Part shown: positions 21,790-62,409 of the stretch, piece by piece | How positions within the stretch are numbered: the stretch's first letter is position 1 | Layout: each line of letters opens with the position of its first letter | Assembly (NCBI GenBank): GCA_013288305.1 | Contig: JABDCD010000001.1 | Location: 4,923-68,922 of the forward strand | From: Alphaproteobacteria bacterium | GTDB lineage: Bacteria > Pseudomonadota > Alphaproteobacteria > Rickettsiales > SXRF01 | DNA length: 64,000 nt | Direction of reading: 5' to 3' | Notes under the pieces: generated by a model | The model's input: only the letters and a program-made list of their open reading frames with translations | Told to the model about the DNA's origin: nothing | Databases searched by the model: none | Translations under genes and position numbers: made by a program

Positions 21790-23172
21790 TTACGGCAAAT
21801 TCATCGCCAGTTTGCCGCCGCTGGGCTGCGGCAGCGAGGCCAGCTGCGCCTCGATGTGCTTTATATTAGTGCGGAAGGCCACGAGTTCCTTCCCGGCCAG
21901 CACCTCGCCGGTTTTGAATTTGATGCCCGCGGGGTTGACCTGTTCGCCGCTCACCAGGATTTCATAATGCAGATGCGGGCCGGTGGCCATGCCGGTCTGG
22001 CCGACATAGGCGACGACCTGCCCTTGCCTGACGTGGCGCCCCGGTGCGATGCCTGACGCGAAATGGCTGATATGGGCATAGGCGCTGGCATAGGTGCCGT
22101 TATGCTTGATGCGCAGGTAATTGCCGTAACCGCCCTTGATGCCCGCCACTTCGACCGTTCCGTCCCCGGCGGCATAGATCGGCGTGCCGACGGGCGCGGC
22201 GAAATCGACGCCGCGATGCATCCGGCTATACCCCAGGATCGGATGGTTGCGCATACCGAAGCCTGAGGAAATACGCGCCCCGTTAACCGGCGTGCGTAAC
22301 AGCGCCTTGCGGACGCTTTCACCTTTTTGGTTATAATAATCGGCGCGGCCGTTTTTATCGACGTAGCGGTAGATTTTCATCTCGCGGTCGCCCAAATCCA
22401 GCTCGGCGAACAGCACGTTGCCATGCCCGGCCACCGTGCCGCTCTCGGTTTGCAGCCGCTCGAACAATACGTCCATCCCGTCGCCGCGCTGGATGTCACG
22501 CTGGAAATCGACGTCATAACTGTAAGCGGCGATAAGCTCTTCCAGCAGCGCCGCCGGAATGCCGGAGTCGACGCCGGTTTCATAAAGGCTGCTGTCGATG
22601 CGTCCCCCGGCGCGCGCCAGTTTGCGCTCCAGCGGCAGGTCTATTTTATGAACGGCAAACGTTCCGTTCTGGCGCACCAGATGCAGCGACGAAATGGGCG
22701 ATATGGGCAGGCTCAAATGGGTAATCACCGGCGTTCCCGCGCCATCGGGACTGCGGTCGAGCCTGAGCGAAACGTCCTGCCCGACATCGAGCTTGCGCAC
22801 GTTATATACCGGTCGGATGGCGTCGACGGCGCGCTGCGCCTCGTCATACGAGACGCCGGCATCGGTCAGTATATTGATCAGCGTATCGCCGTTTTCAACC
22901 TTGAGATCGAGCGACAGCGGGTAAATGATCGCCGGGGTTTCATGGTGGACAGGCGCCGCTGCAGCAACCGTAATTTTCGGCGTGAATGCGGCCATAATGG
23001 CGGCAGGCGCTCGCTCGGCGATTACCCAGGGGGCGGAAGTAAATGCGGAAAAAAGCGCCGACGCGCAGCAAAAAACAACGAGAACGCCGCTGGAAATCCG
23101 GCGAATGCGCCGCTTCGTCACCGAGCGGGAGACGGCTTTGACCGGGTAAAACGCCTCGTAACTGAGCCTCAC
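21790..23172 (-). CDS. M23 family peptidoglycan metalloendopeptidase
   Basis: HRGVDFAAPVGTPIYAAGDG and GMATGPHLHYEI. There is an N-terminal membrane anchor. Confidence 0.88.
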   Translation of the reverse strand: MRLSYEAFYPVKAVSRSVTKRRIRRISSGVLVVFCCASALFSAFTSAPWVIAERAPAAIMAAFTPKITVAAAAPVHHETPAIIYPLSLDLKVENGDTLINILTDAGVSYDEAQRAVDAIRPVYNVRKLDVGQDVSLRLDRSPDGAGTPVITHLSLPISPISSLHLVRQNGTFAVHKIDLPLERKLARAGGRIDSSLYETGVDSGIPAALLEELIAAYSYDVDFQRDIQRGDGMDVLFERLQTESGTVAGHGNVLFAELDLGDREMKIYRYVDKNGRADYYNQKGESVRKALLRTPVNGARISSGFGMRNHPILGYSRMHRGVDFAAPVGTPIYAAGDGTVEVAGIKGGYGNYLRIKHNGTYASAYAHISHFASGIAPGRHVRQGQVVAYVGQTGMATGPHLHYEILVSGEQVNPAGIKFKTGEVLAGKELVAFRTNIKHIEAQLASLPQPSGGKLAMNLP

Positions 23173-45052: not shown

Positions 45053-46034
45053 AATTATTATCACTGAAGCCGACGGCGGCATCCGCCTCGACCGCTGGTT
45101 CAAGCGCCATTATCCCGGACTGCAACATGCGTGGCTCGAAAAAAACCTGCGCAAGGGATTGATTCGCGTGGGCGGCAAAAAAGCGAAATCGTCAGACCGG
45201 GTAGAAATAGGGCAGGTGGTAGATATCAAATGCCCGATGCCGGATGTCACAAAAAATTCCCCGAATCCTGAATCCCGAATCCTGAATCCTGATGACATCC
45301 GCATGATCCAAAATGCCGTCCTCTATAAAGACGCCAACCTCATCGTCCTGGGCAAGCCATACGGCCTGGCGGTGCAGGGCGGCAGCAAAATCGTCAAAAG
45401 CATCGACGGAATGCTCGACGCCCTGCGCGACGGCGGCAAGGAACGCCCCAAGCTCGTCCACCGCCTCGACCGCGACACCAGCGGCTGCCTGGTGCTGGCG
45501 CGCAGTGCCAAAGTCGCCACGGCCATCATGCATCTTTTTTCCTCCCGCCGCGTCGAAAAAACTTATTGGGCGCTGGTCAATAACGCGCCGCTGCCGCCGG
45601 AGGGCGTCATCAACCTGCCGCTCTTAAAAAAAGAAAATCCCAAAGCCAGCGGACGTGCTGGCGGCCCCGAAGGAAGGGACTACGAAATCGTGCAGGTCAA
45701 CGAGGAAGGCCAGAAAGCGACCACCGAATACCGCGTCATCGACCAGCTCGCGCGCAAATTCGCGCTGGTCGAGATGAAGCCGCTCACCGGCCGTATGCAC
45801 CAGCTGCGCGTCCATATGTCGGCCATCGGCTGCCCCATCGTCGGCGATCACAAATATGGCGGCGGCACCGAAGACGCCCGTTCGCTGGGCGTCGAAAACA
45901 TCCTGCATCTTCATGCGCGGCGCATCGTCATCCCGGCCTTGCCTGGCGGCAAGAAAGTCGATGTCCTGGCACCGCTGCCCGACCATATGCGGCGCAGTTT
46001 CAAAGCACTGGGGCTGGACGTTCCGAAGAAATGA
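45045..46034 (+). CDS. RluA-family 23S rRNA pseudouridine synthase (S4 domain + catalytic domain) with an in-frame repeat insertion
   Basis: Catalytic HRLDRDTSGCLVLAR and GRMHQLRVHM. The insertion at 45242-45300 lies between the S4 and catalytic domains. Confidence 0.88.
   Translation: MDKIIITEADGGIRLDRWFKRHYPGLQHAWLEKNLRKGLIRVGGKKAKSSDRVEIGQVVDIKCPMPDVTKNSPNPESRILNPDDIRMIQNAVLYKDANLIVLGKPYGLAVQGGSKIVKSIDGMLDALRDGGKERPKLVHRLDRDTSGCLVLARSAKVATAIMHLFSSRRVEKTYWALVNNAPLPPEGVINLPLLKKENPKASGRAGGPEGRDYEIVQVNEEGQKATTEYRVIDQLARKFALVEMKPLTGRMHQLRVHMSAIGCPIVGDHKYGGGTEDARSLGVENILHLHARRIVIPALPGGKKVDVLAPLPDHMRRSFKALGLDVPKK
45242..45300. repeat. GAATCCY x4 tandem heptamer flanked by the inverted repeat ggatgtcac/gtgacatcc-like, in frame in the pseudouridine synthase gene
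   Basis: ggatgtcacaaaaaattccccgaatcctgaatcccgaatcctgaatcctgatgacatcc. Confidence 0.75.
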
Positions 46035-46732: not shown

Positions 46733-48340
46733 ATGGCTCTGATCCGAAAAAAATCGTCTCCCGCCGATGCGTCGCCGGAGGCGTCCAAAGGCAGCAAGCC
46801 GGTGCGCAGCAGCACCATCATCGGCGAGCTTGAGCATAAGCGCGACCGCGCCCGCGAAGGCGGCGGGCAGGCGCGCGTCGAGGCGCAGCACAGCAAGGGC
46901 AAGCTCACCGCGCGCGAGCGGCTGGAAGTGCTGCTCGATCCCGATTCCTTCGAGGAATACGACATGTTCGTCGAGCATCGCTGCACTCATTTCGGCATGG
47001 AAGCCAACAAAACCCCGGGCGACGGCTGCGTCACCGGCCACGGCACCATCAATGGCCGCCTCGCCTTCGTCTACAGCCAGGATTTTACCGTCTTCGGCGG
47101 CAGCTTGTCGGAAACCAACGCGCTTAAAATCTGCAAAATCCTCGACATGGCGATGAAAACCGGCGCGCCGGTCATCGGCCTGTGCGATTCCGGCGGCGCG
47201 CGCATCCAGGAAGGCGTCGATTCGCTCGGCGGCTATGCCGAAATTTTCCAGAGAAATGTTCTGGCCAGCGGCGTCATCCCGCAGATTTCCGTCATCATGG
47301 GGCCCTGCGCCGGCGGCGCAGTCTATTCCCCGGCGCTGACCGATTTCATCGTCATGGTGCGCGGCACCAGCTATATGTTCGTCACCGGCCCCGAGGTCGT
47401 AAAGACCGTCACTCATGAAATCGTAACGCAGGAACAACTCGGCGGCGCCGATACGCATACGCATAAAACCGGCGTCGCCGATCTCGCCTATGCCAACGAC
47501 ATCGAGGCGCTGCTGCAGACGCGCCGCATGTTCAATTTCCTGCCGCTGTCGAATAAATCCGGCGTGCCGGTGCGCCCGACCAGCGACCCCGCCGACCGCA
47601 TCGAAATGTCGCTCAACACCCTGGTGCCGGAAAACGCCAACCGCGCCTACAACATGAAGGAGCTGATCGAGCGCGTCGCCGACGAGGGGGATTTTTTCGA
47701 GATACAGCCGGATTACGCCAAGAACATCATCACCGGCTTCGGCCGCATGGAAGGCCACACGGTGGGCTTCGTCGCCAACCAGCCGATGCAACTCGCCGGC
47801 TGCCTCGACATCGACTCGGCGCGCAAAGGCGCGCGCTTCGTGCGTTTCTGCGACGCCTTCAACATCCCCATCGTCACCTTCGTCGATGTGCCGGGCTTCA
47901 TGCCGGGGACGTACCAGGAACATAACGGCATCATCAAGCACGGCGCGAAATTATTATACGCCTACGCCGAAGCGACCGTGCCCAAAATCACCGTCATCAC
48001 CCGCAAAGCCTATGGCGGCGCCTATGACGTCATGAGTTCCAAGCATCTGCGCGGCGACCTGAATTACGCCTGGCCCAGCGCCGAAATCGCTGTGATGGGC
48101 CCCAAAGGCGCCGTCGAAATCATCTTCCGCGGCAAGTTCAAAAGCGAAGAAGAAGAGCAGAAGCTGATCGACGACTACCGTGCCAAGTTCGCCAGCCCCT
48201 TCGTCGCCGCCAGCCGCGGCTTCATCGACGACGTCATCCGCCCGCAAAACACCCGCTGGCGCATCTGCCGGTCGCTCGCCGTCCTGCGCGACAAGGACGT
48301 CAAAAATCCGTGGAAGAAGCATGACAATTTGCCGTTGTGA
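46733..48340 (+). CDS. pccB: propionyl-CoA carboxylase beta subunit (acyl-CoA carboxyltransferase)
   Basis: [28 protein letters not shown], and [26 protein letters not shown]. Confidence 0.92.
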
Positions 48341-48456
48341 GGCCAAATAAAATGCAGACAGTTGAAACCGGAATCTCGTATGACGAAACTCCTTGCGTTG
48401 CCTGACGCTAATGTGTATAATGAATATAATCTATACACATAAACAGAGAATACATT

Positions 48457-48750
48457 ATGCGCACCAATATCATCGTCAATGACCGTCTGATGAAACAGGC
48501 CATGCAGCTATCCGGTCTGCATACCAAAAAATCGGTGGTGGAGGAAAGCCTCAAGCTTTTCGTGCAAATGCAGAAGCAAAAAAAGCTTTCCGCGTGGTTC
48601 AGAATACGTGGCAGGCAAAAGAGCGGACAGCCTTTGCCACAACCAGATCGGCTTTTGGCGCTTGCCGGGTCCATTAGTGATGAGGACGCTAATGGTATGA
48701 TGCGCGTTATTTATGAAGATCGTTCTGCGGATTGGGATGCGCGTACGTGA
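48457..48750 (+). CDS. vapB: VapB-type antitoxin (type II TA) with a C-terminal extension
   Basis: MRTNIIVNDRLMKQAMQLSGLHTKKSVVEESLKLFVQMQKQ. Confidence 0.75.
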   Translation: MRTNIIVNDRLMKQAMQLSGLHTKKSVVEESLKLFVQMQKQKKLSAWFRIRGRQKSGQPLPQPDRLLALAGSISDEDANGMMRVIYEDRSADWDART

Positions 48751-49148
48751 CGGGCTGCATCCTTGATAGCGATGTGCTCATCCAGTTGCTTCGTAAAGAC
48801 GCGAAAGCTGTCGGCGATATTGCATCTATCCCCATCCCGGCGCGCCACACCACTATCATTACCTGCTCTGAATTATTGTACGGCGCCTATAATTCCGCCG
48901 CTGTGGAAAGAAATCTTGCTGTTACGCACCAGCTATTGAATGAATTAACCATCTTGCCGCTAACTTACGAATGCTGCGAACAATACGGCGCGTTAAAAGC
49001 GTTGCTTCGCAAGCGGGGCATCACCATCGGCGACAAGGACTTATTGATTGCCGCTATTGCCGTCAGCCATAATCTTCCGATTTTTACTTATAATCTGCGT
49101 GACTTTGGGCGCGTTCCCGGCTTAAAGTTGCACCCGTTATCACGCTAA
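48732..49148 (+). CDS. vapC: PIN-domain ribonuclease toxin VapC
   Basis: ILDSDVLIQLL...DLLIAAIAVSHNLPIFTYNLRDF. The start is uncertain: TTG 48732, or GTG 48747 which overlaps the vapB stop. Confidence 0.78.
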   Translation: MGCAYVTGCILDSDVLIQLLRKDAKAVGDIASIPIPARHTTIITCSELLYGAYNSAAVERNLAVTHQLLNELTILPLTYECCEQYGALKALLRKRGITIGDKDLLIAAIAVSHNLPIFTYNLRDFGRVPGLKLHPLSR

Positions 49149-49162
49149 GAGGGACATAAGCC

Positions 49163-51157: not shown

Positions 51158-52393
51158 ATGGCTGACGTTGCGGTGAAAATCGATTCTTCAACAGAGGCTC
51201 AGAATCCAGGGTCTGAATCCGAATCGCCTATCTATAGTACAGGCGTTCTGCCCTATCAGGCGCTCAAGGAGATGGTGAAGAGCGGCGAAATTAAGACGGA
51301 AATTCTTACTGAAATTATTGAAGATCAGATTCAACCCGCCAGCATCGACTTGCGATTGGGACATTTTGCCTATCCTGTAGATACCAGTTTTCTTCCGGGG
51401 TCAGGTATAAAAGTACTGGAAAAAATGCGACAACTGGATGAGCGCTTTGACGATTTTAAAATCGACCTGAGATCGGGCGCGGTTCTTGAAAGAGGAAGGG
51501 TATATGTCATTCCTCTTTTGGAAGAGGTCAATTTAAAGAGCAGTATGAAAAGTGAAATGCGGGGATTTGCCAATCCCAAAAGCTCCACGGGCAGGCTCGA
51601 TATTCTTACGCGTTTGATCACTGATGAAGGCACTAAGTTTGACCAGGTAAGAAGTGGCTACGAAGGAAAACTCTATGTTGAAGTGGCGCCACGCAGCTTC
51701 AGTATTATTGTTAAAACGGGCACCTGCCTCAACCAATTGCGATTTCGTCGTACCCGAGGTGCTGAATTACAGGCTATTACCTCGGAGAAATGGAAAAGCC
51801 TTCTCGAAAGTGGGCAAATTGCCTACACCCAAGATAACCAAAAACAGTCTAGTGAAGAGACCGGGAAGCTACGCTTTACTATTGATTTGCAAGGATCGGG
51901 GGCGGAAGGGGAGATTGTTGGATGGCGAGCCAAAAAACATGCTAAACGCATTGATCTGGCAAAAATCAACCATTACGACCCGCTCGATTTTTGGGAGCCT
52001 ATCTGCTTCCACAAAAGCGCCTCACTTATCCTCGACCCGGATGAATTCTATATTTTGATGACCAAGGAAGCCATCGCCGTGCCGCCCGATTATGCTGCCG
52101 AGATGCTGCCGTACGACACCCGCGCTGGCGAATTCCGCGTACATTACGCCGGGTTTTTCGATCCCGGCTTCGGCTGGGACGCCCTCACTGGCAAGGCGGG
52201 TAGCAGCCGCGGCGTCCTCGAAGTCCGTTCGCACGAAGTGCCGTTTTTATTGGAGCACGGCCAAACCGTTGGTTGGCTGCGCTATGAACGCATGATGGCC
52301 TGCCCGGATAAACCTTATGGTCAGGGCATTAGCTCAAATTACCAGAACCAAACGCTCAAACTCGCCAAGCAGTTCCGGGCGATGAGCGCCTAG
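51158..52393 (+). CDS. 2'-deoxycytidine 5'-triphosphate deaminase (DCD, two-domain PF06559-like) family protein
   Basis: IQPASIDLRLG, GAVLERGRVYVIPLLE, ANPKSSTGRLDILTR, and PRSFSIIVKTGTCLNQLRFRR. The gene is AT-shifted. Confidence 0.75.
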   Translation: MADVAVKIDSSTEAQNPGSESESPIYSTGVLPYQALKEMVKSGEIKTEILTEIIEDQIQPASIDLRLGHFAYPVDTSFLPGSGIKVLEKMRQLDERFDDFKIDLRSGAVLERGRVYVIPLLEEVNLKSSMKSEMRGFANPKSSTGRLDILTRLITDEGTKFDQVRSGYEGKLYVEVAPRSFSIIVKTGTCLNQLRFRRTRGAELQAITSEKWKSLLESGQIAYTQDNQKQSSEETGKLRFTIDLQGSGAEGEIVGWRAKKHAKRIDLAKINHYDPLDFWEPICFHKSASLILDPDEFYILMTKEAIAVPPDYAAEMLPYDTRAGEFRVHYAGFFDPGFGWDALTGKAGSSRGVLEVRSHEVPFLLEHGQTVGWLRYERMMACPDKPYGQGISSNYQNQTLKLAKQFRAMSA

Positions 52394-53607
52394 TGGATAC
52401 GCGCCGGCTCCGGCTTATATTCTTTTAGAATGGCGCCGTATAGCTCGCTGCCCAGTAACTCTTTCATACGCTTTGACCGCTCATATTGCCTGATCAGTTT
52501 TTCATGCCCCCTGGGATCGTTCTTGGGATTAGGAAGGTCATAGCTGGTTGCTTTTACAGTCTCCAGTTTTTCATTCAGCAATCTATCCTCCAGCGCCTTA
52601 TGGGCAAAACAAGGCTTGCCGCCGTCCCTGTCGCGCCCGCGCACGGCATCGACGAGCGCCGCCATGCTGACAGCCATGCTGACAAAAGGATCGGCATCCA
52701 CGCCGGGAAGGCGATTTTCGATACGGGTTTGATCGAACACTTCTTGCGGATGATTGGCGCCGTAGGCTTTTACGATGCGTACGGAAATGGGAAGCCTGCC
52801 GCGATTATTCTTGGCATCTTCATATCTGTTGTGACCTGTGCTGATCCCAATGCCGTTAGGTGTGGAATTATTGGCATGGATGCGCCATAGCGATTCCTCC
52901 GTTGGCAGCATTGAAATGGCTGCTTCGTTTTGCACTTCGAGCAAAGCATGGGCGCAGCGATACAGCAGATCATGATCAGTGCCGAAGACATTGCGGTTTT
53001 TATCGTCATACAGGCTGACATTGATGTGTAGCGCCGAAGTCAGGTCGCCGTAATTCTCATATTTTGTATTGGACTTTTTGGCGATCTCGCTGCCTCGATA
53101 GGGACGGACGCTGAAATTGGGCTCTATGTAAGGCGCTCTGTCATTGCTGATTTGCGTCAGGCAGGTAGTATGGAGAAGCGCATCTTTCAGCGCCTGTTTT
53201 TTAAGCAGGTGAGTAACGTGGGCTACCGCTTCGGGCCTGAAGGCCGCGCTGTTGAATCCCTGCTTTCGATCTGCCGGCTCGGCAATATTGATTTCGTATT
53301 GCTCCGGAACCATGGGCTGGCTGCGCCCCGGCAATCCAAGCCCGCCTATCGCCTCGTAACCTGTTTTTTCAAGATATTTTTTTCCATCCGCCAGTGTATC
53401 TATAAGCATTTGATTGAGACCGGGTAAATAAATCCGGCGGGCTATGGGTCTTTTATGCTCGTCTTCAGCCATGAATTCCAGCTCGATAGCCGAACGCACA
53501 TATAGGCCGCGCGCCGCCAATTCTTTCTTATATTCGCCAATGCGCTTCAGCGCTGTTTTTTGCAGCTCCGTTAAATTCGAAAAATCGATGTCGCGGGTTT
53601 TTGCCAT
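52390..53607 (-). CDS. divergent glutamine-synthetase-fold ligase (catalytic domain only)
   Basis: GS catalytic motifs appear in the expected order: IELEFMA, SALHINVSL, SVRIVKA, TRIENRLPGVDADPFV, and a C-terminal ELLGSELYGAILKEYK. No N-terminal beta-grasp domain is visible. The gene is AT-rich. Confidence 0.6.
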   Translation of the reverse strand: MAKTRDIDFSNLTELQKTALKRIGEYKKELAARGLYVRSAIELEFMAEDEHKRPIARRIYLPGLNQMLIDTLADGKKYLEKTGYEAIGGLGLPGRSQPMVPEQYEINIAEPADRKQGFNSAAFRPEAVAHVTHLLKKQALKDALLHTTCLTQISNDRAPYIEPNFSVRPYRGSEIAKKSNTKYENYGDLTSALHINVSLYDDKNRNVFGTDHDLLYRCAHALLEVQNEAAISMLPTEESLWRIHANNSTPNGIGISTGHNRYEDAKNNRGRLPISVRIVKAYGANHPQEVFDQTRIENRLPGVDADPFVSMAVSMAALVDAVRGRDRDGGKPCFAHKALEDRLLNEKLETVKATSYDLPNPKNDPRGHEKLIRQYERSKRMKELLGSELYGAILKEYKPEPARIH

Positions 53608-53767
53608 GGTATCTATGATCTTAGGCTATGATTATTAATATATCTTTTTATTCGTAAAATATATCGCCTTTTCCCCTTCCTGGCCATTTCTACTGCTCTT
53701 ATACTCATCCTTGAATGACCACCACCGCTGGCCGGAATGATTAACTAAACATTAAAAAAGTCAAAAA

Positions 53768-54205
53768 ATGTCAAGAAAATTGAGAACAAAACAGATAAAA
53801 GCGGCACGGCTGGTATTGGAAAATTACTCCGCTAATGGCATCGCGCGTGAACTTAAAATACGCCCGGAAACACTATCGCGTTGGAAAAAACTTCCCGCTT
53901 TTAAGAAAATAATAGAACAGGTTACGCAAAGTGAACTGGAGGAGGCGCGTTGTCAATTTGTGCATCTGGTCGATGCTTCGTTAGCGGCATTATGGTCGGT
54001 TGTCAAAGGGAGGCATTGCGATCCGGTTCGCCTCAAAGCCGCTTTAAGCGTGCTCAAACTGGCCGGAATCGAGCGCATTTCGGTGCCCAACGTGTCCGAA
54101 ACGGTGGATAACGCGCCCAAACAGGAGCAAAACGCGCCCGCAAGCGCGGCACCTAATGAAACGCCCGGCCAAACTCCTCCCGCAGCATCCTGTCGAATGT
54201 TGTGA
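53768..54205 (+). CDS. hypothetical protein with an N-terminal HTH-like segment
   Basis: [21 protein letters not shown] resembles a helix-turn-helix. The C-terminus is low-complexity and overlaps the lipB 3' end by about 50 nt. Confidence 0.45.
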
Positions 54206-54893
54206 GCGAAACATCGGCGCCCAGCGCCTTAAGCGACGTCACGCCCGCGTCGGCAATGCCGCAGGGGACGATGCCGCCGTAATGCGACAGGTCAGGATGG
54301 ACGTTGACCGAAATGCCATGATACGCCACCCATTTGCGCACGCGGATGCCGATGGCGGCGATTTTGGCTTCCCCAAAATCAGGTATCGGGTATCGGGCAT
54401 CGGGTATCAGTATTTTTTTTTCTGATTCCTGATTCCCGATTCCTGATTCCCGATTTACCCAAACGCCCACCCGCCCCTCGTGCGTAAACCCTTCCACGCC
54501 GAAGCGGGCAAGCGTGGCGATAATCCATTGCTCCAGCGTATGTACGTACGTACGTACGTCGCGCCCGCGCCGGTTGAGATCGAGCATGGCGTAGGCGACG
54601 CGCTGGCCGGGGCCGTGATAGGTGAATTGCCCGCCGCGGCCTGAGGGGTAAACCGGAAAGCGGGCATCGAGCAGGTCGGCGGCATTGGCGCTGGTGCCCG
54701 CCGTGTAGAGCGGCGGATGCTCCAGCAGCCACACCATCTCCGCCGCCCGCCCGGCCAGAATATCCTCGACCCGCCGCTCCATCGTTTCGACGGCAGCGGG
54801 GTAATCGACCGGCGCGGTGGATATTTTCCATTCCAATCCCCCCTCCCCTTGAGGGAGGGGGTTAGAGGGAGGGGACTTTGTTATTATATTCAT
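54153..54893 (-). CDS. lipB: octanoyltransferase LipB carrying repeat-derived insertions
   Basis: [23 protein letters not shown], and [17 protein letters not shown]. Start set at ATG 54893; TTG 54836 is an alternative. The track start 55004 would overlap the tRNA. Confidence 0.88.
54379..54453. repeat. tandem-heptamer-arm hairpin, family J (GGTATCG / GGAATCR), in frame in lipB
   Basis: tcaggtatcgggtatcgggcatcgggtatcag / T-run loop / ctgattcctgattcccgattcctgattcccga. The arms are only partly complementary. Confidence 0.75.
54838..54876. repeat. family E module (CCCCTCCCC hairpin) in the lipB 5' region
   Basis: cccccctccccttgagggagggggttagagggaggggac. Confidence 0.75.
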
Positions 54894-54976: not shown

Positions 54977-55061
54977 GCGGCCGTGGCGGAATTGGTAGAC
55001 GCACTACCTTGAGGTGGTAGCGCCGCGAGGCGTGGAAGTTCGAGTCTTCTCGGCCGCACCA
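54977..55061 (+). tRNA. tRNA-Leu (anticodon GAG), CCA encoded
   Basis: I folded the cloverleaf by hand. Acceptor GCGGCCG/CGGCCGC, anticodon stem CTACC/GGTAG with loop TTGAGGT, a long variable arm, and T-arm GGAAG TTCGAGT CTTCT. Confidence 0.9.
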
Positions 55062-55207: not shown

Positions 55208-55690
55208 TTATCCCGCGATCAGCCTTAAATTCTCCAGCACCTTGGGGTCGGCCGTGTCGTCGTCATAGGTGAATTCGACGTCGTCCTTGGTGCGCACCTT
55301 GTCGGTGCGCTTGAACTTGCCGTCGACGAAGGCGCCGTCTTCGATGGTGATGGCTTCGTGCATGATGATGCCCTCGACGTTGCACGACGCGAAAAGCTGC
55401 ACGATCTTGGCGCGGATCAGCCCGCGGATCTTGCCGTAGGCGAGCACGGTGTTGGCCATGATTTCGCCCTTGATGAAGCTCTGCTCGCGCAGCGTCAGCG
55501 TGGTGCAGCGGATATTGCCGTCGAGCGTGCCGTTGAAGTCGATATTGCCCTCGCTGACGATATTGCCCAGGATGCTGACGTCCCGGGTGATGATCGACGG
55601 GATGGCGTCTTTCTTGCCGCTGGCGGCGGGGCGGGAAGTCACGGTGGCTTGGGTGGTGCTGTTATTCTTCAGAAACATAATGGCCTGCAT
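55208..55690 (-). CDS. bactofilin family cytoskeletal protein
   Basis: Repetitive beta-helix pattern: ILGNIVSEGNIDFNGTLDGNIRC...IKGEIMANTVLAYGKIRGLI...VEGIIMHEAITIEDGAFVDG. Confidence 0.85.
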   Translation of the reverse strand: MQAIMFLKNNSTTQATVTSRPAASGKKDAIPSIITRDVSILGNIVSEGNIDFNGTLDGNIRCTTLTLREQSFIKGEIMANTVLAYGKIRGLIRAKIVQLFASCNVEGIIMHEAITIEDGAFVDGKFKRTDKVRTKDDVEFTYDDDTADPKVLENLRLIAG

Positions 55691-56768
55691 CTAAGAAGTT
55701 GGCGGGATTCATGGGATGGTCGTGGTAGCGCACTTCGTAATGCAGGTGCGGGCCGGTGCTGCGCCCGGTCGAGCCCTGGATGCCGATGACATCGCCCTTA
55801 TGCACGGTCTGGCCTTCCTTGACCCGGATTTCGCTCAAATGGCCGTAACGCGTGGTGATGCCGAAGCCGTGGTCGATGTCGACGGCATTGCCGTAAGCGC
55901 CGCTGATACCGGCGAAAGCCACCGTGCCCTCGGCCGTGCTGTATATTTTGGAGCCGGTCGGCCCGGCCAGGTCAAGCCCGGAATGAAAAGCGAGATGGCC
56001 GGTGAACGGATCGATGCGGTGGCCGAACGGGCTTTGCGGCTCGGCGTCGGCGATGGGCTTGCCTAGCGGCAGGTTGCCCACGATCTGGCGCAGGACGGCC
56101 AGCTTGTCGAGATTGCCGTACATGGCGTATTCCTGTGACGACATCGCCGCCGGGATATACGGCCCGCCTTCGGATTTCGCGTTTGCGGCGGGTTTGCCCT
56201 CGGTAGCCTGTTTGCCGCCGTTGAGTTCGTGCTTCAAGTCTTCCACCTTGAGGCCGGTCTGGCGGATGACCGATTCGAGATCGCTGATGCGCCCCGACGT
56301 TTTATCGCTGACGCGCCGGATGATCGCATCGGTATTGGTTTTGAGCTCCATGACCTTATGTTCGAGAAACGCGATGCGCGCAAACATCTTGTTATGGTCG
56401 AGCGACGACAGGGTATACATCGGGTCGCTGAGCGAGGTGACGGTCGGATTGCCGGGCGCGTTGGCGTTGACATTCGTAAGTTCGGAGGTGGGGAACATGG
56501 TGTTGAAATTGGTATCGACGCGGGCGCTGGCGACGGAGCGCAGCGTCTGGCGCTGTTCCTTGAGCACGGAGCGCGCCGCCATGAAACTTCCGGTCGAATA
56601 GGACGCCCAGCATACGCCGAAGATGAGCAAGGCCAGCGTCACGAACTGCGTTTTTCCGCCGACAGGGAGATGTTTTACTTTGCGTTCGGAGATGATGATG
56701 ATGTTGCGCTTGGGAAACCAACGCTTGAAATACTCGGCTAAAGCCGCGACGGAAGAAATCATCCGCAT
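55662..56768 (-). CDS. M23 family metallopeptidase (membrane-anchored, coiled-coil linker)
   Basis: FHSGLDLAGPTGSKIYSTAEG and GSTGRSTGPHLHYEV. It overlaps the downstream bactofilin start. Confidence 0.88.
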   Translation of the reverse strand: MRMISSVAALAEYFKRWFPKRNIIIISERKVKHLPVGGKTQFVTLALLIFGVCWASYSTGSFMAARSVLKEQRQTLRSVASARVDTNFNTMFPTSELTNVNANAPGNPTVTSLSDPMYTLSSLDHNKMFARIAFLEHKVMELKTNTDAIIRRVSDKTSGRISDLESVIRQTGLKVEDLKHELNGGKQATEGKPAANAKSEGGPYIPAAMSSQEYAMYGNLDKLAVLRQIVGNLPLGKPIADAEPQSPFGHRIDPFTGHLAFHSGLDLAGPTGSKIYSTAEGTVAFAGISGAYGNAVDIDHGFGITTRYGHLSEIRVKEGQTVHKGDVIGIQGSTGRSTGPHLHYEVRYHDHPMNPANFLDAGHYVSEE

Positions 56769-59992: not shown

Positions 59993-61264
59993 ATGAAAAA
60001 CAACACCTCCGAACCTCCGGGTTCCCGCCTCGAGCTTTCTCCCCAACTGGCAAGACGTTCCAACGTCATCTCCCTACCCACACCTCTTATCAGCGAAGAC
60101 TATTCGCCCGACCGCAGCTACCGCTCGGTCGACGACATGGTGCATGAGCTGCGCCCGGAAACGCCGGTGCAGTGCCTGCGCCCGGCGACCATCGTGGCCA
60201 CTGCCAAGCGCTTCTTGAAAGCCTTTCCTGGCGAGGTGATGTACGCCGTCAAAACCAATCCCGACCGCCGCGTGCTGGCCTATCTGGCGCGCGCCGGCGT
60301 CACGCATTACGACGTGGCGTCGCTGTCCGAAATCAAGCTGGTGGCCGATGCGCTGCCCGGCGCTGAGATGCATTTCATGCACCCGGTCAAGAGCCGCGAA
60401 GCCATTGCTGTCGCTTACGACGAATACGGCATCCGCGACTTTTCGCTCGATACGCATGAGGAGCTGCAAAAAATCCTCGACGTCACCGGTCATGCCACCG
60501 ACCTCAACCTCTATGTCCGTCTGGCCATTCCCAATGACGGCGCGGCGATGAGCCTGGCCGGGAAATTCGGCGTGCCCCTCGCTGAGGCGGCGGAATTGCT
60601 GAAAGCCACACGCGAAGCGGCCTATCATCTGGGCGTATGTTTCCATGTCGGCTCGCAATGCATGAAGCCCGACGCCTATATTTCCGCTGTCCAGCTCGTC
60701 GCCGATGTGCTGGCGGAAAGCAACGTCCGCCTCGATATCTTTGATATCGGCGGCGGCTTCCCGTCGATCTATCCGGGCATGACGCCGCCGCCGCTGTCGA
60801 ACTACATGCGGGCGGTCAAGAAAGCGCTGAAGCTCCATCCCACGCTCGCCGAATGCCAGGTGGTATGCGAACCGGGGCGCGCGCTGGTGGCCGAAGGCGG
60901 CTCGGTCGTCGCCCGCGTCGAAGCGCGCAAGGGCAACATGCTCTACATCAACGACGGCATCTACGGCAGCCTGTTCGACGCCGGAACGCCCGGCTTCGTC
61001 TTCCCGGTCAAGGCCATGCGCCCGGGCGGCACCTTGTCGCAGGAGCTGGCGGAATTCGGCTTCTTCGGCCCGACCTGCGACAGCCTCGACGCCATGAAAG
61101 GCCCGTTCCACCTGCCCAGGGACATCGCCGAAGGCGACTGGATCGAGATCGGCCAGCTCGGTGCCTACGGCGCCACCATGCGCACCAGCTTCAACGGCTT
61201 CTACTCCGACCTCACGGTTGAGGTGGCGGACAAGCCGATATTAAGCGTGACGGGTGTCAACTGA
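59993..61264 (+). CDS. PLP-dependent ornithine/lysine decarboxylase (group IV, alanine-racemase fold)
   Basis: YAVKTNPDRRVL carries the PLP lysine. Also DIGGGFP, EPGRALVA, and GPTCDSLD. Confidence 0.88.
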   Translation: MKNNTSEPPGSRLELSPQLARRSNVISLPTPLISEDYSPDRSYRSVDDMVHELRPETPVQCLRPATIVATAKRFLKAFPGEVMYAVKTNPDRRVLAYLARAGVTHYDVASLSEIKLVADALPGAEMHFMHPVKSREAIAVAYDEYGIRDFSLDTHEELQKILDVTGHATDLNLYVRLAIPNDGAAMSLAGKFGVPLAEAAELLKATREAAYHLGVCFHVGSQCMKPDAYISAVQLVADVLAESNVRLDIFDIGGGFPSIYPGMTPPPLSNYMRAVKKALKLHPTLAECQVVCEPGRALVAEGGSVVARVEARKGNMLYINDGIYGSLFDAGTPGFVFPVKAMRPGGTLSQELAEFGFFGPTCDSLDAMKGPFHLPRDIAEGDWIEIGQLGAYGATMRTSFNGFYSDLTVEVADKPILSVTGVN

Positions 61265-61268
61265 TTAT

Positions 61269-61324
61269 CCCCGCCGAATGGCGGGGTCCGGTTTTAGCCC
61301 CGCCCTAGGGCGGGGCTTAATTTT
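61269..61324 (+). terminator. two tandem GC hairpins plus a T-tract after the decarboxylase gene
   Basis: ccccgcc-gaat-ggcgggg, then gccccgcc-ctag-ggcggggc followed by ttaatttt. Confidence 0.6.
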
Positions 61325-61335
61325 AGGAGAATGTA

Positions 61336-62409
61336 ATGAAGCAAAACATTAAAGCTGTTGCTAAATCTAACCAGACCCCGCAACAAGTGCGGGGAGTAAA
61401 GCACAACCTGCTCACCAACCCCGTCGAGCATATCGACATCACCTCATTCGACGCGCGGCCGATCATCGACCAGATGCGCCGCATGTCGTTCACCTCGCGC
61501 GACCTCGCCAAGGCTGCCGAGATTTACAACATGATGCTGGCGGATAAAAAATGCAGCGTCATCCTGACGCTGGCCGGCTCTACCTCTGCGGGCGGCTGCA
61601 TGAGGCTCTATGCCGACCTTGTGAAGTTCGGCATGGTCGATGCCATCGTGGCAACGGGTGCCTCCATCGTCGATATGGATTTCTTCGAGGCGCTCGGTTT
61701 TCGCCACTATCAGGGCAGCCCGTTCGTCGACGACAAAGTCCTGCGCGAAAATTACGTCGACCGCATTTACGACACCTATATCGACGAAGAACAGCTCCAG
61801 TCCTGCGACCACACCATCAAAAAAATCGCCGATTCCCTGCCGCCCAAGCCCTATTCCAGCCGCGCCTTCATCCGCGAGATGGGCAGGTGGCTGACTAAAA
61901 ATTCCAAGAAAAAAGATTCGCTGGTTGAACTTGCATACCGCCATGACGTGCCGATTTTCTGCCCGGCCTTCACCGATTCTTCCGCCGGTTTCGGCCTCGT
62001 CGTGCACCAGGCCAAAAATCCCAAAAAGCACATGACCATCGATTCCGTGGCTGATTTCCGCGAGCTGACCGACATTAAAATCAAAGCCGGCACCACCGGC
62101 CTGCTCATGATCGGCGGCGGCGTGCCGAAAAATTTTGCGCAGGACACCGTCGTCTGCGCCGAAATCCTCGGCAAGGAAGTCGACATGCATAAATACGCCG
62201 TGCAAATCACCGTCGCCGATTCGCGCGATGGCGCCTGCAGTTCGTCTACGCTTAAGGAAGCCTGCAGCTGGGGCAAGGTGGACACCGCCTATGAACAAAT
62301 GGTCTTCGCCGAAGCCGGAAGCGTATTGCCGCTGCTGGCCAGCGACGCCTATCACCGTGGGCATTGGAAGAAACGCACCAAGAGAAATTTTGCAAAGCTG
62401 TTTTCATGA
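61336..62409 (+). CDS. deoxyhypusine synthase-like protein (homospermidine-synthase-like)
   Basis: LTLAGSTSAGGCMRLYADLVKFGMVDAIVATGASIVD and GGGVPKNF. Confidence 0.82.
   Translation: MKQNIKAVAKSNQTPQQVRGVKHNLLTNPVEHIDITSFDARPIIDQMRRMSFTSRDLAKAAEIYNMMLADKKCSVILTLAGSTSAGGCMRLYADLVKFGMVDAIVATGASIVDMDFFEALGFRHYQGSPFVDDKVLRENYVDRIYDTYIDEEQLQSCDHTIKKIADSLPPKPYSSRAFIREMGRWLTKNSKKKDSLVELAYRHDVPIFCPAFTDSSAGFGLVVHQAKNPKKHMTIDSVADFRELTDIKIKAGTTGLLMIGGGVPKNFAQDTVVCAEILGKEVDMHKYAVQITVADSRDGACSSSTLKEACSWGKVDTAYEQMVFAEAGSVLPLLASDAYHRGHWKKRTKRNFAKLFS

What the first reader, a model, noticed from the sequence alone, without database searches (positions are those of the whole stretch)
52390..53607. Glutamine-synthetase catalytic domain without the N-terminal beta-grasp domain
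The motif order matches GS type I:
- IELEFMA resembles the EPEFF strand.
- SALHINVSL resembles the HxHxSL metal and ammonium site.
- PISVRIVKA resembles the RSASIRIP region.
- TRIENRLPGVDADPFV resembles RIEVRFPDxxANPYL.
- The C-terminus ELLGSELYGAILKEYK resembles the GS C-terminal helix.

The protein starts only about 40 residues before the first motif, and the region around the adenylylation/Tyr loop is highly diverged. It is AT-rich and divergent. It could be a gamma-glutamyl or other amide ligase acting on a non-canonical substrate.
Basis: partly seen in the sequence, partly recalled or inferred. Interest (0 to 1): 0.55.

Follow-up and report, generated by a model that had tools for sequence, protein, structure and literature searches.

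The report
Stand-alone glutamine-synthetase-like ligase, no N-domain
This gene encodes a rare, fast-evolving relative of glutamine synthetase that keeps the ATP- and metal-dependent ligase machinery but has lost the parts that bind ammonia, so it probably joins a glutamate-like acid to some other, still unknown, amine.

Summary
Window 52390-53607 (-) is a real 405-aa gene. It hits Pfam Gln-synt_C just above threshold (27.5 vs 24 bits). Its family profile aligns to canonical GlnA from residue 101 onward (HHalign 99.85%, E 1e-30), and its AlphaFold model (pTM 0.85) matches type I glutamine synthetases (Foldseek E 4e-14).

No member has the beta-grasp N-domain. All six GS metal ligands and the phosphate- and glutamate-binding arginines are conserved. 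The ammonia-handling parts are gone: H271 is replaced by Asn, the Glu327 flap by Ser, and Asp50'/Ser53' are absent. It is therefore very probably an active ATP-dependent carboxylate-amine ligase, but not a glutamine synthetase.

The family is very rare and known only from uncultured Alphaproteobacteria. In at least ten other loci it sits antisense between tgt and queA. It evolves far faster than its neighbours, and one locus preserves a deleted remnant of a replaced allele. More distant domain relatives occur as modules of giant proteins on integrase-bearing islands.

The substrate is unknown. I rate it a new variant of a known kind, of moderate interest.

The parts
52390..53607 (-). GS-like gene: 405 aa, Gln-synt_C domain only, soluble, pI 8.8
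   Evidence: ORF. Pfam Gln-synt_C at 27.5 bits. AlphaFold model pTM 0.85. Foldseek best hits are GS type I. No hydrophobic segment.
53473..53484 (-). E42-L-E44-F, equivalent to the GS E129/E131 metal ligands (the 'EPEFF' strand)
   Evidence: HHalign. E42 and E44 are conserved in all full-length core members.
53353..53355 (-). E85, the probable equivalent of GS E212 (n1 metal ligand)
   Evidence: Aligned to E212 when a short-loop family member is the master sequence. The column is E in 41 and D in 3 of 46 sequences. With the window protein as master, the alignment instead puts E212 opposite the inserted loop.
53305..53352 (-). 16-residue insertion (residues 86-101) in the beta-hairpin between the E212 and E220 equivalents; it is variable or absent in relatives
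   Evidence: Alignment gaps. pLDDT is below 50 for residues 89-95.
53293..53301 (-). Q103-Y-E105, equivalent to GS Q218-N-E220 (metal ligand)
   Evidence: HHalign. E105 is invariant in 46 of 46 sequences.
53011..53028 (-). H194-I-N196-V-S198-L. H194 corresponds to GS H269 (metal ligand). N196 replaces H271 (an ATP-site residue). S198 corresponds to S273.
   Evidence: hmmalign of canonical GlnA onto the family profile. N (or S) at this position marks the clade without the N-domain, whereas the ~450-aa GS-like proteins have H.
52882..52893 (-). S239-L-W-R242, equivalent to GS N-S-Y-K-R321 (binds the glutamate alpha-carboxylate)
   Evidence: R242 is invariant in the core family.
52858..52866 (-). 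S248-T-P250, in place of GS E327-A-P; the catalytic flap glutamate is lost
   Evidence: hmmalign aligns GlnA E327 to S248. In the ~150-protein table only two short, distant fragments (P0127, P0141) have Glu here, and no core member does.
52777..52779 (-). R277, equivalent to GS R344 (ATP phosphate binding)
52687..52725 (-). R295-I-E297-N-R299-L-P-G-V-D-A-D-P, equivalent to GS R355-I-E357-V-R359-F-P-D-x-x-A-N-P (ATP and acyl-phosphate arginines plus a metal ligand)
   Evidence: This is the most conserved block of the family. Mapping.
53608..53767 (.). AT-rich (35% GC) divergent intergenic region upstream of the gene, with three weak sigma-70-like matches on the minus strand
   Evidence: Composition. 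The promoter scan found 4 sites in the 2.1-kb region against 2.3 expected, so this is not significant. No Rfam element was found.
53768..54205 (+). Divergent 145-aa HTH ORF resembling a phage terminase small subunit; it belongs to the same low-GC patch and overlaps the 3' end of lipB by 53 nt
   Evidence: phrog_7344 E 1.3e-11. Pfam HTH_Tnp_1_2 at 27.7 bits, just below the 27.9-bit cut-off. GC 50.9%.
51158..52393 (+). dcd (dCTP deaminase, 411 aa), convergent with the GS-like gene; the two stop codons share the palindrome CTAG (52390-52393)
   Evidence: Pfam DCD_N, DCD and DCD_C. Overlap checked.

Best explanation
The gene encodes a stand-alone, soluble enzyme of the glutamine-synthetase (carboxylate-amine ligase) fold. 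It most likely uses the GS chemistry. Two divalent metals and ATP activate a glutamate-type carboxylate as an acyl-phosphate, which an amine then attacks to give an amide.

The amine is not free ammonia. The protein lacks the beta-grasp N-domain, which in GS comes from the neighbouring subunit, closes the active-site funnel and supplies the ammonium-site residues Asp50' and Ser53'. It also lacks the Glu327 flap and His271.

Without the N-domain it cannot build the GS ring active site (inference). It should therefore present an open beta-sheet cradle, as PafA and gamma-glutamylcysteine ligase do, and could accept a bulky amine or a peptide-borne or protein-borne partner.

It is an accessory gene rather than a nitrogen-assimilation gene. 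Seven relatives' loci show a canonical glnA about 3 kb from the GS-like gene; three more contigs end before that distance. The GS-like gene diverges much faster than its neighbours and has been replaced by a distant allele at least once.

What is shown: the fold, the domain architecture, retention and loss of specific catalytic residues, rarity, genomic contexts and allele turnover. What is inferred: catalytic activity, acyl-phosphate chemistry, a monomeric open site, and a non-ammonia acceptor. The substrate and the cellular role are unknown.
For: Fold and homology:
- Pfam Gln-synt_C is the only family hit in all 18 members.
- The family profile hits only GS chains and lengsin in the PDB.
- HHalign to GlnA and GS-like proteins gives 99.85% probability, E 1e-30, starting at GlnA residue 101.
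- The AlphaFold model has pTM 0.85, and the top 50 Foldseek PDB hits are all GS or GS-like ligases.

Catalytic residues kept across the clade:
- E42/E44 correspond to E129/E131.
- E85 corresponds to E212.
- E105 corresponds to E220.
- H194 corresponds to H269.
- R242 corresponds to R321.
- R277 corresponds to R344.
- R295/E297/R299 correspond to R355/E357/R359.

Ammonia-specific elements lost:
- No N-domain in any member.
- H271 is replaced by N196, and E327 by S248.

Not the housekeeping GS:
- A canonical glnA is seen in seven relatives' loci, preceded by glnB in six of them.

Accessory, fast-turnover behaviour:
- GS-like proteins are 30-59% identical where tgt is 66-97% identical.
- L001 and L085 have tgt 97% and queA 90% identical, but their GS-like proteins are only 43% identical. 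L085 also carries an internally deleted remnant of the L001-type allele.
- The window copy sits at a different site, in a lower-GC patch beside a phage-derived HTH gene.

Precedent: PafA is a GS-derived ligase whose open cradle accepts protein substrates (PMC3511204).
Against: - There are no biochemical data and no co-transcribed partner gene that would point to a substrate.
- His271 contributes to nucleotide binding in GS. Its replacement by Asn could mean altered nucleotide use or a different reaction, such as phosphotransfer only.
- Model confidence is low in several loops around the putative acceptor site (pLDDT below 50 at residues 89-95, 150-156, 178-186 and 261-270), so the 'open cradle' was not examined at atomic level.
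- Oligomeric state was not tested.
- The E85-to-E212 equivalence depends on which family member is used as master sequence in the alignment.
Confidence: 0.65

Rival explanations
1. It is a conflict or effector-type enzyme. In this reading the open GS-fold ligase modifies a macromolecule (protein, peptide or nucleic-acid base) of a host, prey, competitor or phage, as PafA ligates Pup to lysines. This is a more specific version of the best explanation, not an exclusive alternative.
For: - It diverges very fast relative to its neighbours, and an allele has been replaced, leaving a remnant.
- Its distribution is patchy and very rare.
- It is a singleton with its own AT-rich upstream region; no Rfam element was found there and promoter-like matches are not above chance.
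- The window copy lies in a lower-GC patch next to a phage-derived terminase-small-subunit-like HTH gene.
- Distant relatives of the same N-domain-less domain are modules of 750-2,860-aa proteins with weak ankyrin, EF-hand, ELM1-like and M48 hits.
- Some of those giant proteins lie on integrase/AlpA/primase islands.
- The lineage has MAG relatives labelled Rickettsiales, one on a contig of about 2 Mb.
Against: - The protein has no signal peptide, no recognisable secretion signal and no adjacent immunity-like or chaperone gene.
- No secretion system lies in the 64-kb window.
- PADLOC gives no hit, and viral contigs hold no family member.
- The core family mostly tracks tgt phylogeny (Spearman 0.78) and keeps one chromosomal slot, which suggests a resident cellular function.
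- The giant proteins are only distant relatives (about 75-90 bits to the family profile) and form a different subgroup, with W at position 248 and mostly S at position 196.
Confidence: 0.25
2. It is a small-molecule gamma-glutamyl-amine (or other amide) synthetase for catabolism or detoxification, functionally like PuuA, GlnA3, GlnA4 or the 1-naphthylamine GS-like enzyme, acting on a polyamine or another amine.
For: - Known GS-like paralogues that have lost ammonia specificity are mostly gamma-glutamyl-amine ligases.
- 1-naphthylamine GS (8x6z, 8wwu) and the GS-like structure 5dm3 are among the Foldseek hits.
- NCBIfam gives weak hits to type III GS and to gamma-glutamylputrescine synthetase.
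- The nearest ~450-aa relatives share the IENRLPG motif.
- Polyamine-type genes (Orn/DAP-decarboxylase-like and deoxyhypusine-synthase-like) lie 6-9 kb away in the window.
Against: - Every characterised gamma-glutamyl-amine ligase I know of keeps the N-domain and the oligomeric ring (my own knowledge). This clade lacks it.
- No amine transporter, gamma-glutamyl hydrolase, oxidase or dehydrogenase is adjacent in any of at least 13 loci examined.
- The polyamine genes are separated from the gene by unrelated genes and are absent from the relatives' loci.
- Allele replacement and very fast divergence are unusual for a catabolic enzyme.
Confidence: 0.25
3. It is functionally tied to queuosine or 7-deazaguanine tRNA modification. 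For example, it might amidate or glutamylate preQ1 or a Q precursor, or act in salvage. The basis for this idea is that the core family sits between tgt and queA.
For: - The tgt(-) | GS-like(+) | queA(-) arrangement, or the observable part of it on short contigs, recurs in ten distinct loci. Eight show both flanks (L001, L002, L003, L083, L085, L086, L093, L094); L084 and L092 show the queA side, and L087, a second contig with the same protein as L086, shows the tgt side.
- The GS-like proteins at these loci are only 30-59% identical to each other.
- It persists in L093, where the flank beyond tgt differs.
- preQ1 carries a primary amine, the kind of acceptor a GS-like ligase could use (my inference).
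Against: - The gene is on the opposite strand from tgt and queA, so it is not co-transcribed with them.
- queA-tgt adjacency is itself common (my own knowledge), so a gene inserted between them would be carried along passively.
- L094 holds two further unrelated genes in the same gap and L085 holds a dead allele. The gap therefore behaves as an insertion site.
- The window copy lies between dcd and lipB, with no tgt or queA within 64 kb.
- Distant members of the clade lie elsewhere.
- No preQ1 riboswitch or other Rfam element was found at any locus.
- The nearby tRNA is tRNA-Lys(UUU), which is not a Q substrate.
Confidence: 0.1
4. It is a genuine but minimal glutamine synthetase that assimilates ammonia.
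For: - The fold and all six metal ligands are those of GS.
- JGI annotates one fragment as 'glutamine synthetase'.
Against: - The N-domain that carries D50'/S53' is absent.
- The E327 flap and H271 are replaced.
- A canonical GlnA that is 88-93% conserved is seen in seven relatives' loci, with PII alongside in six of them.
- NCBIfam GS models score 14 bits or less, against cut-offs above 400 bits.
Confidence: 0.03
5. It is a catalytically dead relic or a purely regulatory or structural pseudo-enzyme.
For: - It diverges fast, has several low-confidence loops and carries an insertion in the catalytic hairpin.
- One dead allele exists in L085.
Against: - About a dozen catalytic positions are invariant or nearly so, in proteins that are otherwise only 30-48% identical and across a clade of well over 100 clusters. 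That argues for selection on catalysis.
- Intact full-length ORFs are present in all loci examined.
Confidence: 0.05

Closest known systems
Type I glutamine synthetase (GlnA; Pfam Gln-synt_N + Gln-synt_C; e.g. PDB 4lnf, 8ufj, 1f52)
   Same: - The catalytic-domain fold is the same (Foldseek E 4e-14).
- The strand and motif order is the same.
- All six metal ligands are kept, as are R321, R344, R355 and R359.
- The NLF and ...DA(D/N)P(F/Y) motifs and the C-terminal helix are shared.
   Different: - There is no beta-grasp N-domain, so D50'/S53' are absent and there is presumably no ring-type shared active site.
- H271 is replaced by Asn, and the E327 flap by Ser.
- There is no adenylylation Tyr loop.
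- The E212-E220 hairpin carries a 16-residue insertion.
- Identity to GS chains in the structural alignments is only about 15%.
- The gene coexists with a canonical GlnA in relatives' genomes.
GS-like gamma-glutamyl-amine ligases (PuuA, GlnA3/GlnA4, 1-naphthylamine GS NpaA1 as in 8x6z, 5dm3) and the ~450-aa alphaproteobacterial 'glutamine synthetase family proteins' that share the IENRLPG motif
   Same: - These are GS paralogues that have moved away from ammonia towards other amines.
- They share the R-I-E-N-R-L-P-G-x-D motif.
- They appear among the fold hits, and NCBIfam gives a weak GGputSyn hit.
   Different: - All of them retain the N-domain (about 450 aa) and H271 (H-x-H-x-S). The window family has neither.
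- No catabolic partner genes lie next to the window family.
Pup ligase PafA / deamidase Dop (Pfam Pup_ligase) and gamma-glutamylcysteine ligases (GshA; GCS2/YbdK)
   Same: - They have the carboxylate-amine ligase fold without a GS-type N-domain.
- The active site is an open beta-sheet cradle.
- Chemistry proceeds through an acyl-phosphate on a glutamate carboxylate.
- In PafA the substrates are proteins (PMC3511204).
- This is what the window protein is proposed to work like.
   Different: - No sequence-level membership was found. Pfam at E up to 10 (window protein) or up to 1 (all 18 members) reports only Gln-synt_C.
- The family profile at E up to 1 hits only GS and lengsin chains in the PDB.
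- There is no Pup, proteasome or Mpa context.
- The window family is much closer to GS proper.
Phage 'amidoligase' proteins (Pfam Amidoligase_2-type; BFVD hits such as A0A6J5MP31)
   Same: They are a distant branch of the GS-like amidoligase fold and have no N-domain. They are discussed as candidate nucleobase or peptide modifiers (PMC8989533).
   Different: - The structural similarity is weak (TM 0.33 or lower, E about 5e-4).
- There is no Pfam hit to that family.
- No family member was found in 2.9 million viral contigs.

Membership tests
Glutamine synthetase type I (GlnA) | Gln-synt_C catalytic domain | tested here: met
   PF00120 scores 27.5 bits against a 24-bit cut-off for the window protein. 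All 18 family members hit it, best E 1e-19. HHalign gives 99.85% probability. The fold matches GS type I.
Glutamine synthetase type I (GlnA) | N-terminal beta-grasp domain (Gln-synt_N), which supplies Asp50'/Ser53' to the neighbouring subunit's active site | tested here: not met
   No PF03951 hit in any of 18 members at E up to 1. The alignment to GlnA begins at GlnA residue 101 and query residue 12. No separate N-domain ORF was detected in the window by tblastn with full-length GlnA.
Glutamine synthetase type I (GlnA) | Six metal ligands: E129, E131, E212, E220, H269, E357 | tested here: met
   They correspond to E42, E44, E85, E105, H194 and E297. The E85-to-E212 match is supported only when a short-loop family member is the alignment master.
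Glutamine synthetase type I (GlnA) | ATP, phosphate and glutamate residues: H271, R321, R344, R355, R359 | tested here: inconclusive
   R242, R277, R295 and R299 are conserved, but H271 is replaced by Asn196, a substitution characteristic of the whole clade without the N-domain.
Glutamine synthetase type I (GlnA) | Glu327 flap, which handles ammonium deprotonation and closes the active site | tested here: not met
   GlnA E327 aligns to S248. No core member has Glu here; in the ~150-protein table only two short, distant fragments do.
Glutamine synthetase type I (GlnA) | NCBIfam equivalog score for GlnA (TIGR00653, PRK09469) or type III GS (TIGR03105) | tested here: not met
   The best hit is TIGR03105 at 14 bits against a cut-off of 469.6. 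There is no hit to TIGR00653.
Glutamine synthetase type I (GlnA) | Dodecameric double ring with active sites shared between subunits | not testable with these tools
   Only a monomer model was possible. Absence of the N-domain makes the GS-type interface unlikely, but that is inference.
Gamma-glutamyl-amine ligases (PuuA / GlnA3 type) | Full-length two-domain GS architecture with the equivalog profile (NF045547 GGputSyn) | tested here: not met
   NF045547 scores 11.6 bits against a 650-bit cut-off. The N-domain is absent.
Gamma-glutamyl-amine ligases (PuuA / GlnA3 type) | Genomic association with amine catabolism genes (gamma-glutamyl hydrolase, oxidase or dehydrogenase, transporter) | tested here: not met
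   None is adjacent in the window or in at least 12 other loci.
Pup ligase / Dop (PF03136) and GCS2 / GshA carboxylate-amine ligases | A match to the family's own sequence profile | tested here: not met
   Pfam at E up to 10 (window protein) or up to 1 (family) reports only Gln-synt_C. The PDB profile search returns only GS and lengsin chains.
Pup ligase / Dop (PF03136) and GCS2 / GshA carboxylate-amine ligases | Open, monomeric beta-sheet cradle that accepts a macromolecular or bulky partner | not testable with these tools
Known anti-phage defence proteins (PADLOC-DB) | A match to a defence-system profile | tested here: not met
   There are no PADLOC hits for the window protein or for the giant relatives P0067 and P0083.

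The most novel reading that the evidence does not exclude
The domain defines an uncharacterised clade of open-cradle GS-fold ligases used in biological conflict: protein-modifying or nucleic-acid-modifying amidoligases.

- Single-gene versions are swapped between lineages at a fixed chromosomal slot (tgt|X|queA) in small-genome uncultured Alphaproteobacteria.
- Distant versions are deployed as warheads in giant multi-domain proteins on integrative islands.

If so, the window gene would be a new type of effector or defence enzyme that installs an ATP-dependent amide (for example a glutamyl-type) modification on a foreign or host macromolecule.
Probability: 0.2. Interest if true: 0.8.

Novelty: new variant of a known kind. 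Interest (0 to 1): 0.45.

Why it matters
Glutamine synthetase is one of the best-studied enzymes. Its active site is built between subunits, using the N-terminal domain of the neighbour.

This is a coherent natural clade: at least about 55 clusters at 50% identity with E<1e-30, and well over 100 at lower scores. It has discarded that domain, the ammonia flap and His271, while keeping every metal and phosphate ligand under strong constraint. That points to a different substrate logic on the same chemistry.

The only characterised precedent I am aware of is PafA/Dop, where this logic led to protein tagging.

The gene's behaviour suggests an accessory, possibly conflict-related role that no annotation captures:
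- extreme rarity;
- fast divergence;
- a caught-in-the-act allele replacement;
- domain relatives inside giant island-borne proteins.

All members are labelled 'hypothetical protein' or wrongly labelled 'glutamine synthetase'. Identifying the acceptor would add a new reaction to the GS superfamily. It would also correct mis-annotation that could distort nitrogen-metabolism inferences from MAGs.

Tried and rejected
- Paralogy with the other ~406-aa low-GC ORF at 8118-9338: rejected. That ORF is an unrelated Fic/SoFic protein.
- Direct PDB sequence search with the single protein: no hits. Only the family profile reached GS.
- BFVD viral fold search: only weak amidoligase-like hits, TM 0.33 or lower.
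- Third protein search with a profile of distant N-domain-less members: swamped by canonical GS candidates, with only 4 hits and nothing new.
- Cluster look-ups for source names: all 'hypothetical protein' or unnamed.
- Literature: no paper in the held library describes this family. The key classification paper (Iyer et al. 2009, PMC3268129) is not held, so I cannot exclude that the clade is mentioned there.
- A riboswitch or other RNA link to queuosine: none found at nine loci or upstream of the window gene. The tRNA near the tgt block is tRNA-Lys(UUU), not a Q-tRNA.
- Island boundaries for the low-GC patch: no flanking direct or inverted repeats of note. tRNA-Leu (54977-55061) is separated from the patch by lipB.
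- Promoter and terminator scans around the gene: not above the shuffled expectation.
- Phage origin of the family: no member in IMG/VR.
- The 'YDLP' at residues 357-360 as an adenylylation site: rejected. The Tyr is not conserved, and the segment aligns to a later part of GS.
- The 298-aa extra gene in L094: no informative PDB match.

Full report
**1. The observation**

The ORF at 52390-53607 on the minus strand (405 aa, ATG start) exists as described.

Pfam reports a single family, Gln-synt_C, at 27.5 bits against a 24-bit gathering cut-off. The hit covers only residues 186-322. NCBIfam GS models score 14 bits or less against cut-offs of hundreds of bits. The single sequence finds nothing in the PDB. 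On its own, then, the protein is a borderline hit.

The family-level evidence is decisive.
- Eighteen homologues align well (alignment A1), and all 18 match Gln-synt_C and no other relevant family.
- The family profile finds about 30 GS chains in the PDB, the best being B. subtilis GS 4lnf at E 2e-7. That alignment runs through the C-terminal helix.
- A profile-profile comparison with canonical GlnA plus GS-like proteins gives 99.85% probability, E 1e-30. The alignment starts at query residue 12 and GlnA residue 101, which is the first helix of the catalytic domain.
- The AlphaFold model (pTM 0.85, mean pLDDT 76.6) matches type I GS structures best (M. mazei 8ufj, E 4e-14, TM 0.55). Next come GS-like amide ligases such as 1-naphthylamine GS and 5dm3.

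'AT-rich' is true only in relative terms. The gene has 51.3% GC against a window mean of 57%, and GC3 of 0.57 against 0.68-0.88 in most neighbours. The adjacent dcd and HTH ORFs are low as well.

**2. Active-site anatomy**

I aligned canonical GlnA onto the family HMM and ran two profile-profile alignments. Together they give this mapping, in S. typhimurium GS numbering, which I know from the GS literature:

| Window residue | GS residue |
|---|---|
| E42, E44 | E129, E131 |
| E85 | E212 |
| Q103-Y-E105 | Q218-N-E220 |
| H194 | H269 |
| N196 | H271 |
| S198 | S273 |
| R242 | R321 |
| S248 | E327 |
| R277 | R344 |
| R295, E297, R299 | R355, E357, R359 |

The E85-to-E212 match appears when a short-loop member is the alignment master. 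With the window protein as master, its 16-residue hairpin insertion shifts the alignment. Column 85 is E or D in 44 of 46 sequences, and column 105 is E in 46 of 46.

All six metal ligands are therefore retained, as are the arginines that hold ATP, the acyl-phosphate and the glutamate alpha-carboxylate. Three things are missing:
- the whole N-domain, which in GS comes from the neighbouring subunit and carries Asp50' and Ser53' of the ammonium site;
- the Glu327 flap;
- His271.

Strict conservation of the chemistry residues, in proteins that are otherwise only 30-48% identical, argues for an active enzyme. Loss of every ammonia-specific element argues that it is not a glutamine synthetase.

**3. 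How big and how rare the family is**

- A word-indexed search of 5.8 billion proteins found only 19 relatives. None has a functional name apart from one fragment that JGI calls 'glutamine synthetase'.
- Among 185,579 species-representative genomes, only three carry a full-length member. All three are MAGs labelled 'Alphaproteobacteria bacterium'.
- 241 million metagenome records yielded one more, and 2.9 million viral contigs yielded none.
- An exhaustive HMM search of 1.84 billion cluster representatives found 55 clusters at E<1e-30 and 173 at E<1e-10.
- Most hits down to about 80 bits are 330-430-aa proteins that begin at the catalytic domain. Most of them carry N or S instead of H271, and almost never Glu at the E327 position.
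- Canonical GS-like proteins of about 450 aa, with H-x-H-x-S, appear only below that.

The N-domain-less architecture is thus a coherent and sizeable, if sparsely sampled, clade. The window protein belongs to its core group, and its nearest relative is 48% identical.

EF-G places the window's organism among uncultured Alphaproteobacteria. NCBI labels some of its relatives 'Rickettsiales bacterium', one of them on a contig of about 2.05 Mb.

**4. Genomic context**

In the window the gene is convergent with dcd, and the two stop codons share the palindrome CTAG. It is divergent from a 145-aa HTH ORF that resembles phage terminase small subunits (phrog_7344, E 1.3e-11). lipB and tRNA-Leu follow. 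The rest of the window is core chromosome, and no secretion system is visible.

In ten other distinct loci the core-family gene sits on the opposite strand in the tgt-queA gap.
- Eight loci show both flanks: L001, L002, L003, L083, L085, L086, L093 and L094.
- L084 and L092 show the queA side. L087, a second contig with the same protein as L086, shows the tgt side.
- In most of these loci the gene overlaps the 3' end of queA by a few bases (4 nt where gene calls are available).
- A canonical glnA is seen about 3 kb away in seven loci, preceded by glnB in six of them.
- The trio persists in L093, where the flank beyond tgt differs.

More distant N-domain-less members are singletons in unrelated housekeeping neighbourhoods. 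No Rfam element such as a preQ1 riboswitch accompanies the gene. The tRNA near the tgt block is tRNA-Lys(UUU).

**5. Evolutionary behaviour**

Across eight loci, tgt is 66-97% identical, queA 55-90%, and the GS-like protein 30-59%. GlnA is 88-93% identical.

GS-like identity broadly follows tgt identity (Spearman 0.78), so descent is mostly vertical but very fast. There is one striking exception. L001 and L085 have tgt 97% and queA 90% identical, but their GS-like proteins are only 43% identical.

L085 explains why. Between tgt and its GS-like gene lies an in-frame remnant made of two pieces:
- the upstream region and first ~33 codons of the L001-type allele (89% nucleotide identity);
- fused to its last 11 codons (97% identity).

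The divergent full-length allele follows two bases later. This is direct evidence that one allele was displaced by a distant one.

L094 carries two additional unrelated genes in the same gap, so the gap behaves as a cargo site.

**6. Distant relatives in giant proteins**

The same N-domain-less domain occurs as a module in proteins of 750-2,860 aa. Their other regions are mostly unannotated, with weak ankyrin, EF-hand, ELM1-like and M48 hits.
- Two such genes (P0067 and P0083) are adjacent, next to a DUF4011/AAA_11 helicase, with an excisionase-like HTH_17 gene and an integrase 1.4-2.6 kb downstream.
- Another (P0096) is cargo on an integrase/AlpA/PriCT-primase element.

PADLOC has no model for them. 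They form a separate subgroup, with W at position 248 and mostly S at position 196. They are suggestive for the window gene but not probative.

**7. Interpretation**

Best explanation (confidence about 0.65): a stand-alone ATP-dependent, two-metal carboxylate-amine ligase. It uses GS acyl-phosphate chemistry on a glutamate-type carboxylate, with an acceptor other than ammonia. Without the N-domain the active site should be an open cradle like that of PafA, which accepts protein substrates (PMC3511204).

Whether the acceptor is a small amine (about 0.25), a macromolecule in a conflict or effector setting (about 0.25), or a queuosine-related base (about 0.1) cannot be decided from sequence.

Two readings are unlikely:
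- a bona fide GS, because the ammonia elements are lost and a canonical GlnA is present in relatives' genomes;
- a dead relic, because the catalytic residues are under constraint.

**8. Comparison with known families, and novelty**

By profile and fold the domain is a divergent member of the Gln-synt_C superfamily. It fails the defining tests for GlnA: no N-domain, no E327, no H271, and equivalog scores far below threshold. It also fails the tests for PuuA-type ligases: no N-domain, no equivalog score and no catabolic context. It has no sequence membership in the PafA/Dop, GCS2/GshA or phage amidoligase families.

It therefore probably works like an open-cradle amidoligase while descending from GS proper. 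I found no description of this clade in the held literature.

I rate it a new variant of a known kind, with interest 0.45. The architecture and residue pattern are clean, and the allele-turnover evidence is unusual. No substrate or phenotype can yet be assigned.

Noticed in passing
window 8118-9338 (-): A 406-aa Fic-domain protein in the lowest-GC patch of the window (GC 39%, GC3 0.30). It is a strong match to the PADLOC SoFic defence protein (E 5e-63) and is probably a horizontally acquired defence or toxin gene. A Fic gene also lies near the distant GS-like member P0035 in L090.
   Followed up: partly
window 54365-54460 (inside the lipB coding sequence, - strand), with a related 21-mer at 45268-45288: A 96-nt palindromic repeat made of GAATC(A/G)GG-type units sits in frame inside lipB. 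It folds into a long hairpin (-36.6 kcal/mol, z = -4.9). A related copy lies inside the pseudouridine synthase ORF. It looks like a dispersed palindromic element that inserts into coding sequences, reminiscent of Rickettsia palindromic elements.
   Followed up: partly
window 53768-54205 (+): A 145-aa HTH ORF resembling phage terminase small subunits (phrog_7344, E 1.3e-11). It is divergent from the GS-like gene, and its low-complexity C-terminus overlaps the 3' end of lipB by 53 nt. It may be a remnant of a mobile element or a domesticated regulator.
   Followed up: partly
window 51158-52393 (+): dcd (411 aa, dCTP-deaminase-like) also has unusually low GC (49.8%, GC3 0.53). Yet it is packed 3 nt after the high-GC propionyl-CoA carboxylase alpha gene. 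The low-GC stretch therefore spans dcd, the GS-like gene and the HTH ORF (about 51.2-54.2 kb).
   Followed up: no
L085 2918-3111: An internally deleted, in-frame remnant of an L001-type GS-like allele: the 5' part is 89% and the last 11 codons 97% nucleotide-identical to L001. It lies immediately upstream of a full-length allele that is only 43% identical, while the flanking tgt and queA are 97% and 90% identical to L001.
   Followed up: yes
L094 4117-5324: The tgt|GS-like|queA gap holds two extra minus-strand genes here, one of 298 aa (no informative PDB match) and one encoding a 97-aa hydrophobic protein. The gap therefore accumulates cargo.
   Followed up: partly
L082 7561-14527; L088 2158-5721: Giant proteins carrying the N-domain-less GS domain lie on integrative elements. 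P0067 (808 aa) and P0083 (1,508 aa) are adjacent, next to a DUF4011/AAA_11 helicase, with an HTH_17 gene and an integrase 1.4-2.6 kb downstream. P0096 (1,187 aa) is on an integrase/AlpA/PriCT-AAA_25 element that looks P4-like. They are candidate uncharacterised defence or toxin systems, and PADLOC gives no hit.
   Followed up: partly
window 59993-62409 (+): An Orn/DAP-decarboxylase-like gene followed by a deoxyhypusine-synthase-like (homospermidine-synthase-type) gene. This is a polyamine module 6-9 kb from the GS-like gene, and no link to it was established.
   Followed up: no
window ~48340-49160 (seen as L081 5350-6041): A VapB/PIN (VapC) toxin-antitoxin pair is inserted between the beta and alpha subunit genes of propionyl-CoA carboxylase.
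   Followed up: no
window 1119-1763 (+): An ORF6N-domain protein (the N-terminal domain of phage antirepressor/KilA-type proteins) lies between aspS and a carbon-nitrogen hydrolase gene. It is another phage-derived singleton in core chromosome.
   Followed up: no
window 55208-56768 (-) and 21790-23172 (-): A bactofilin gene overlaps an M23 peptidase gene, and a second M23 peptidase with a Csd3-like domain lies elsewhere in the window. This is a cell-shape module typical of curved or helical bacteria.
   Followed up: no
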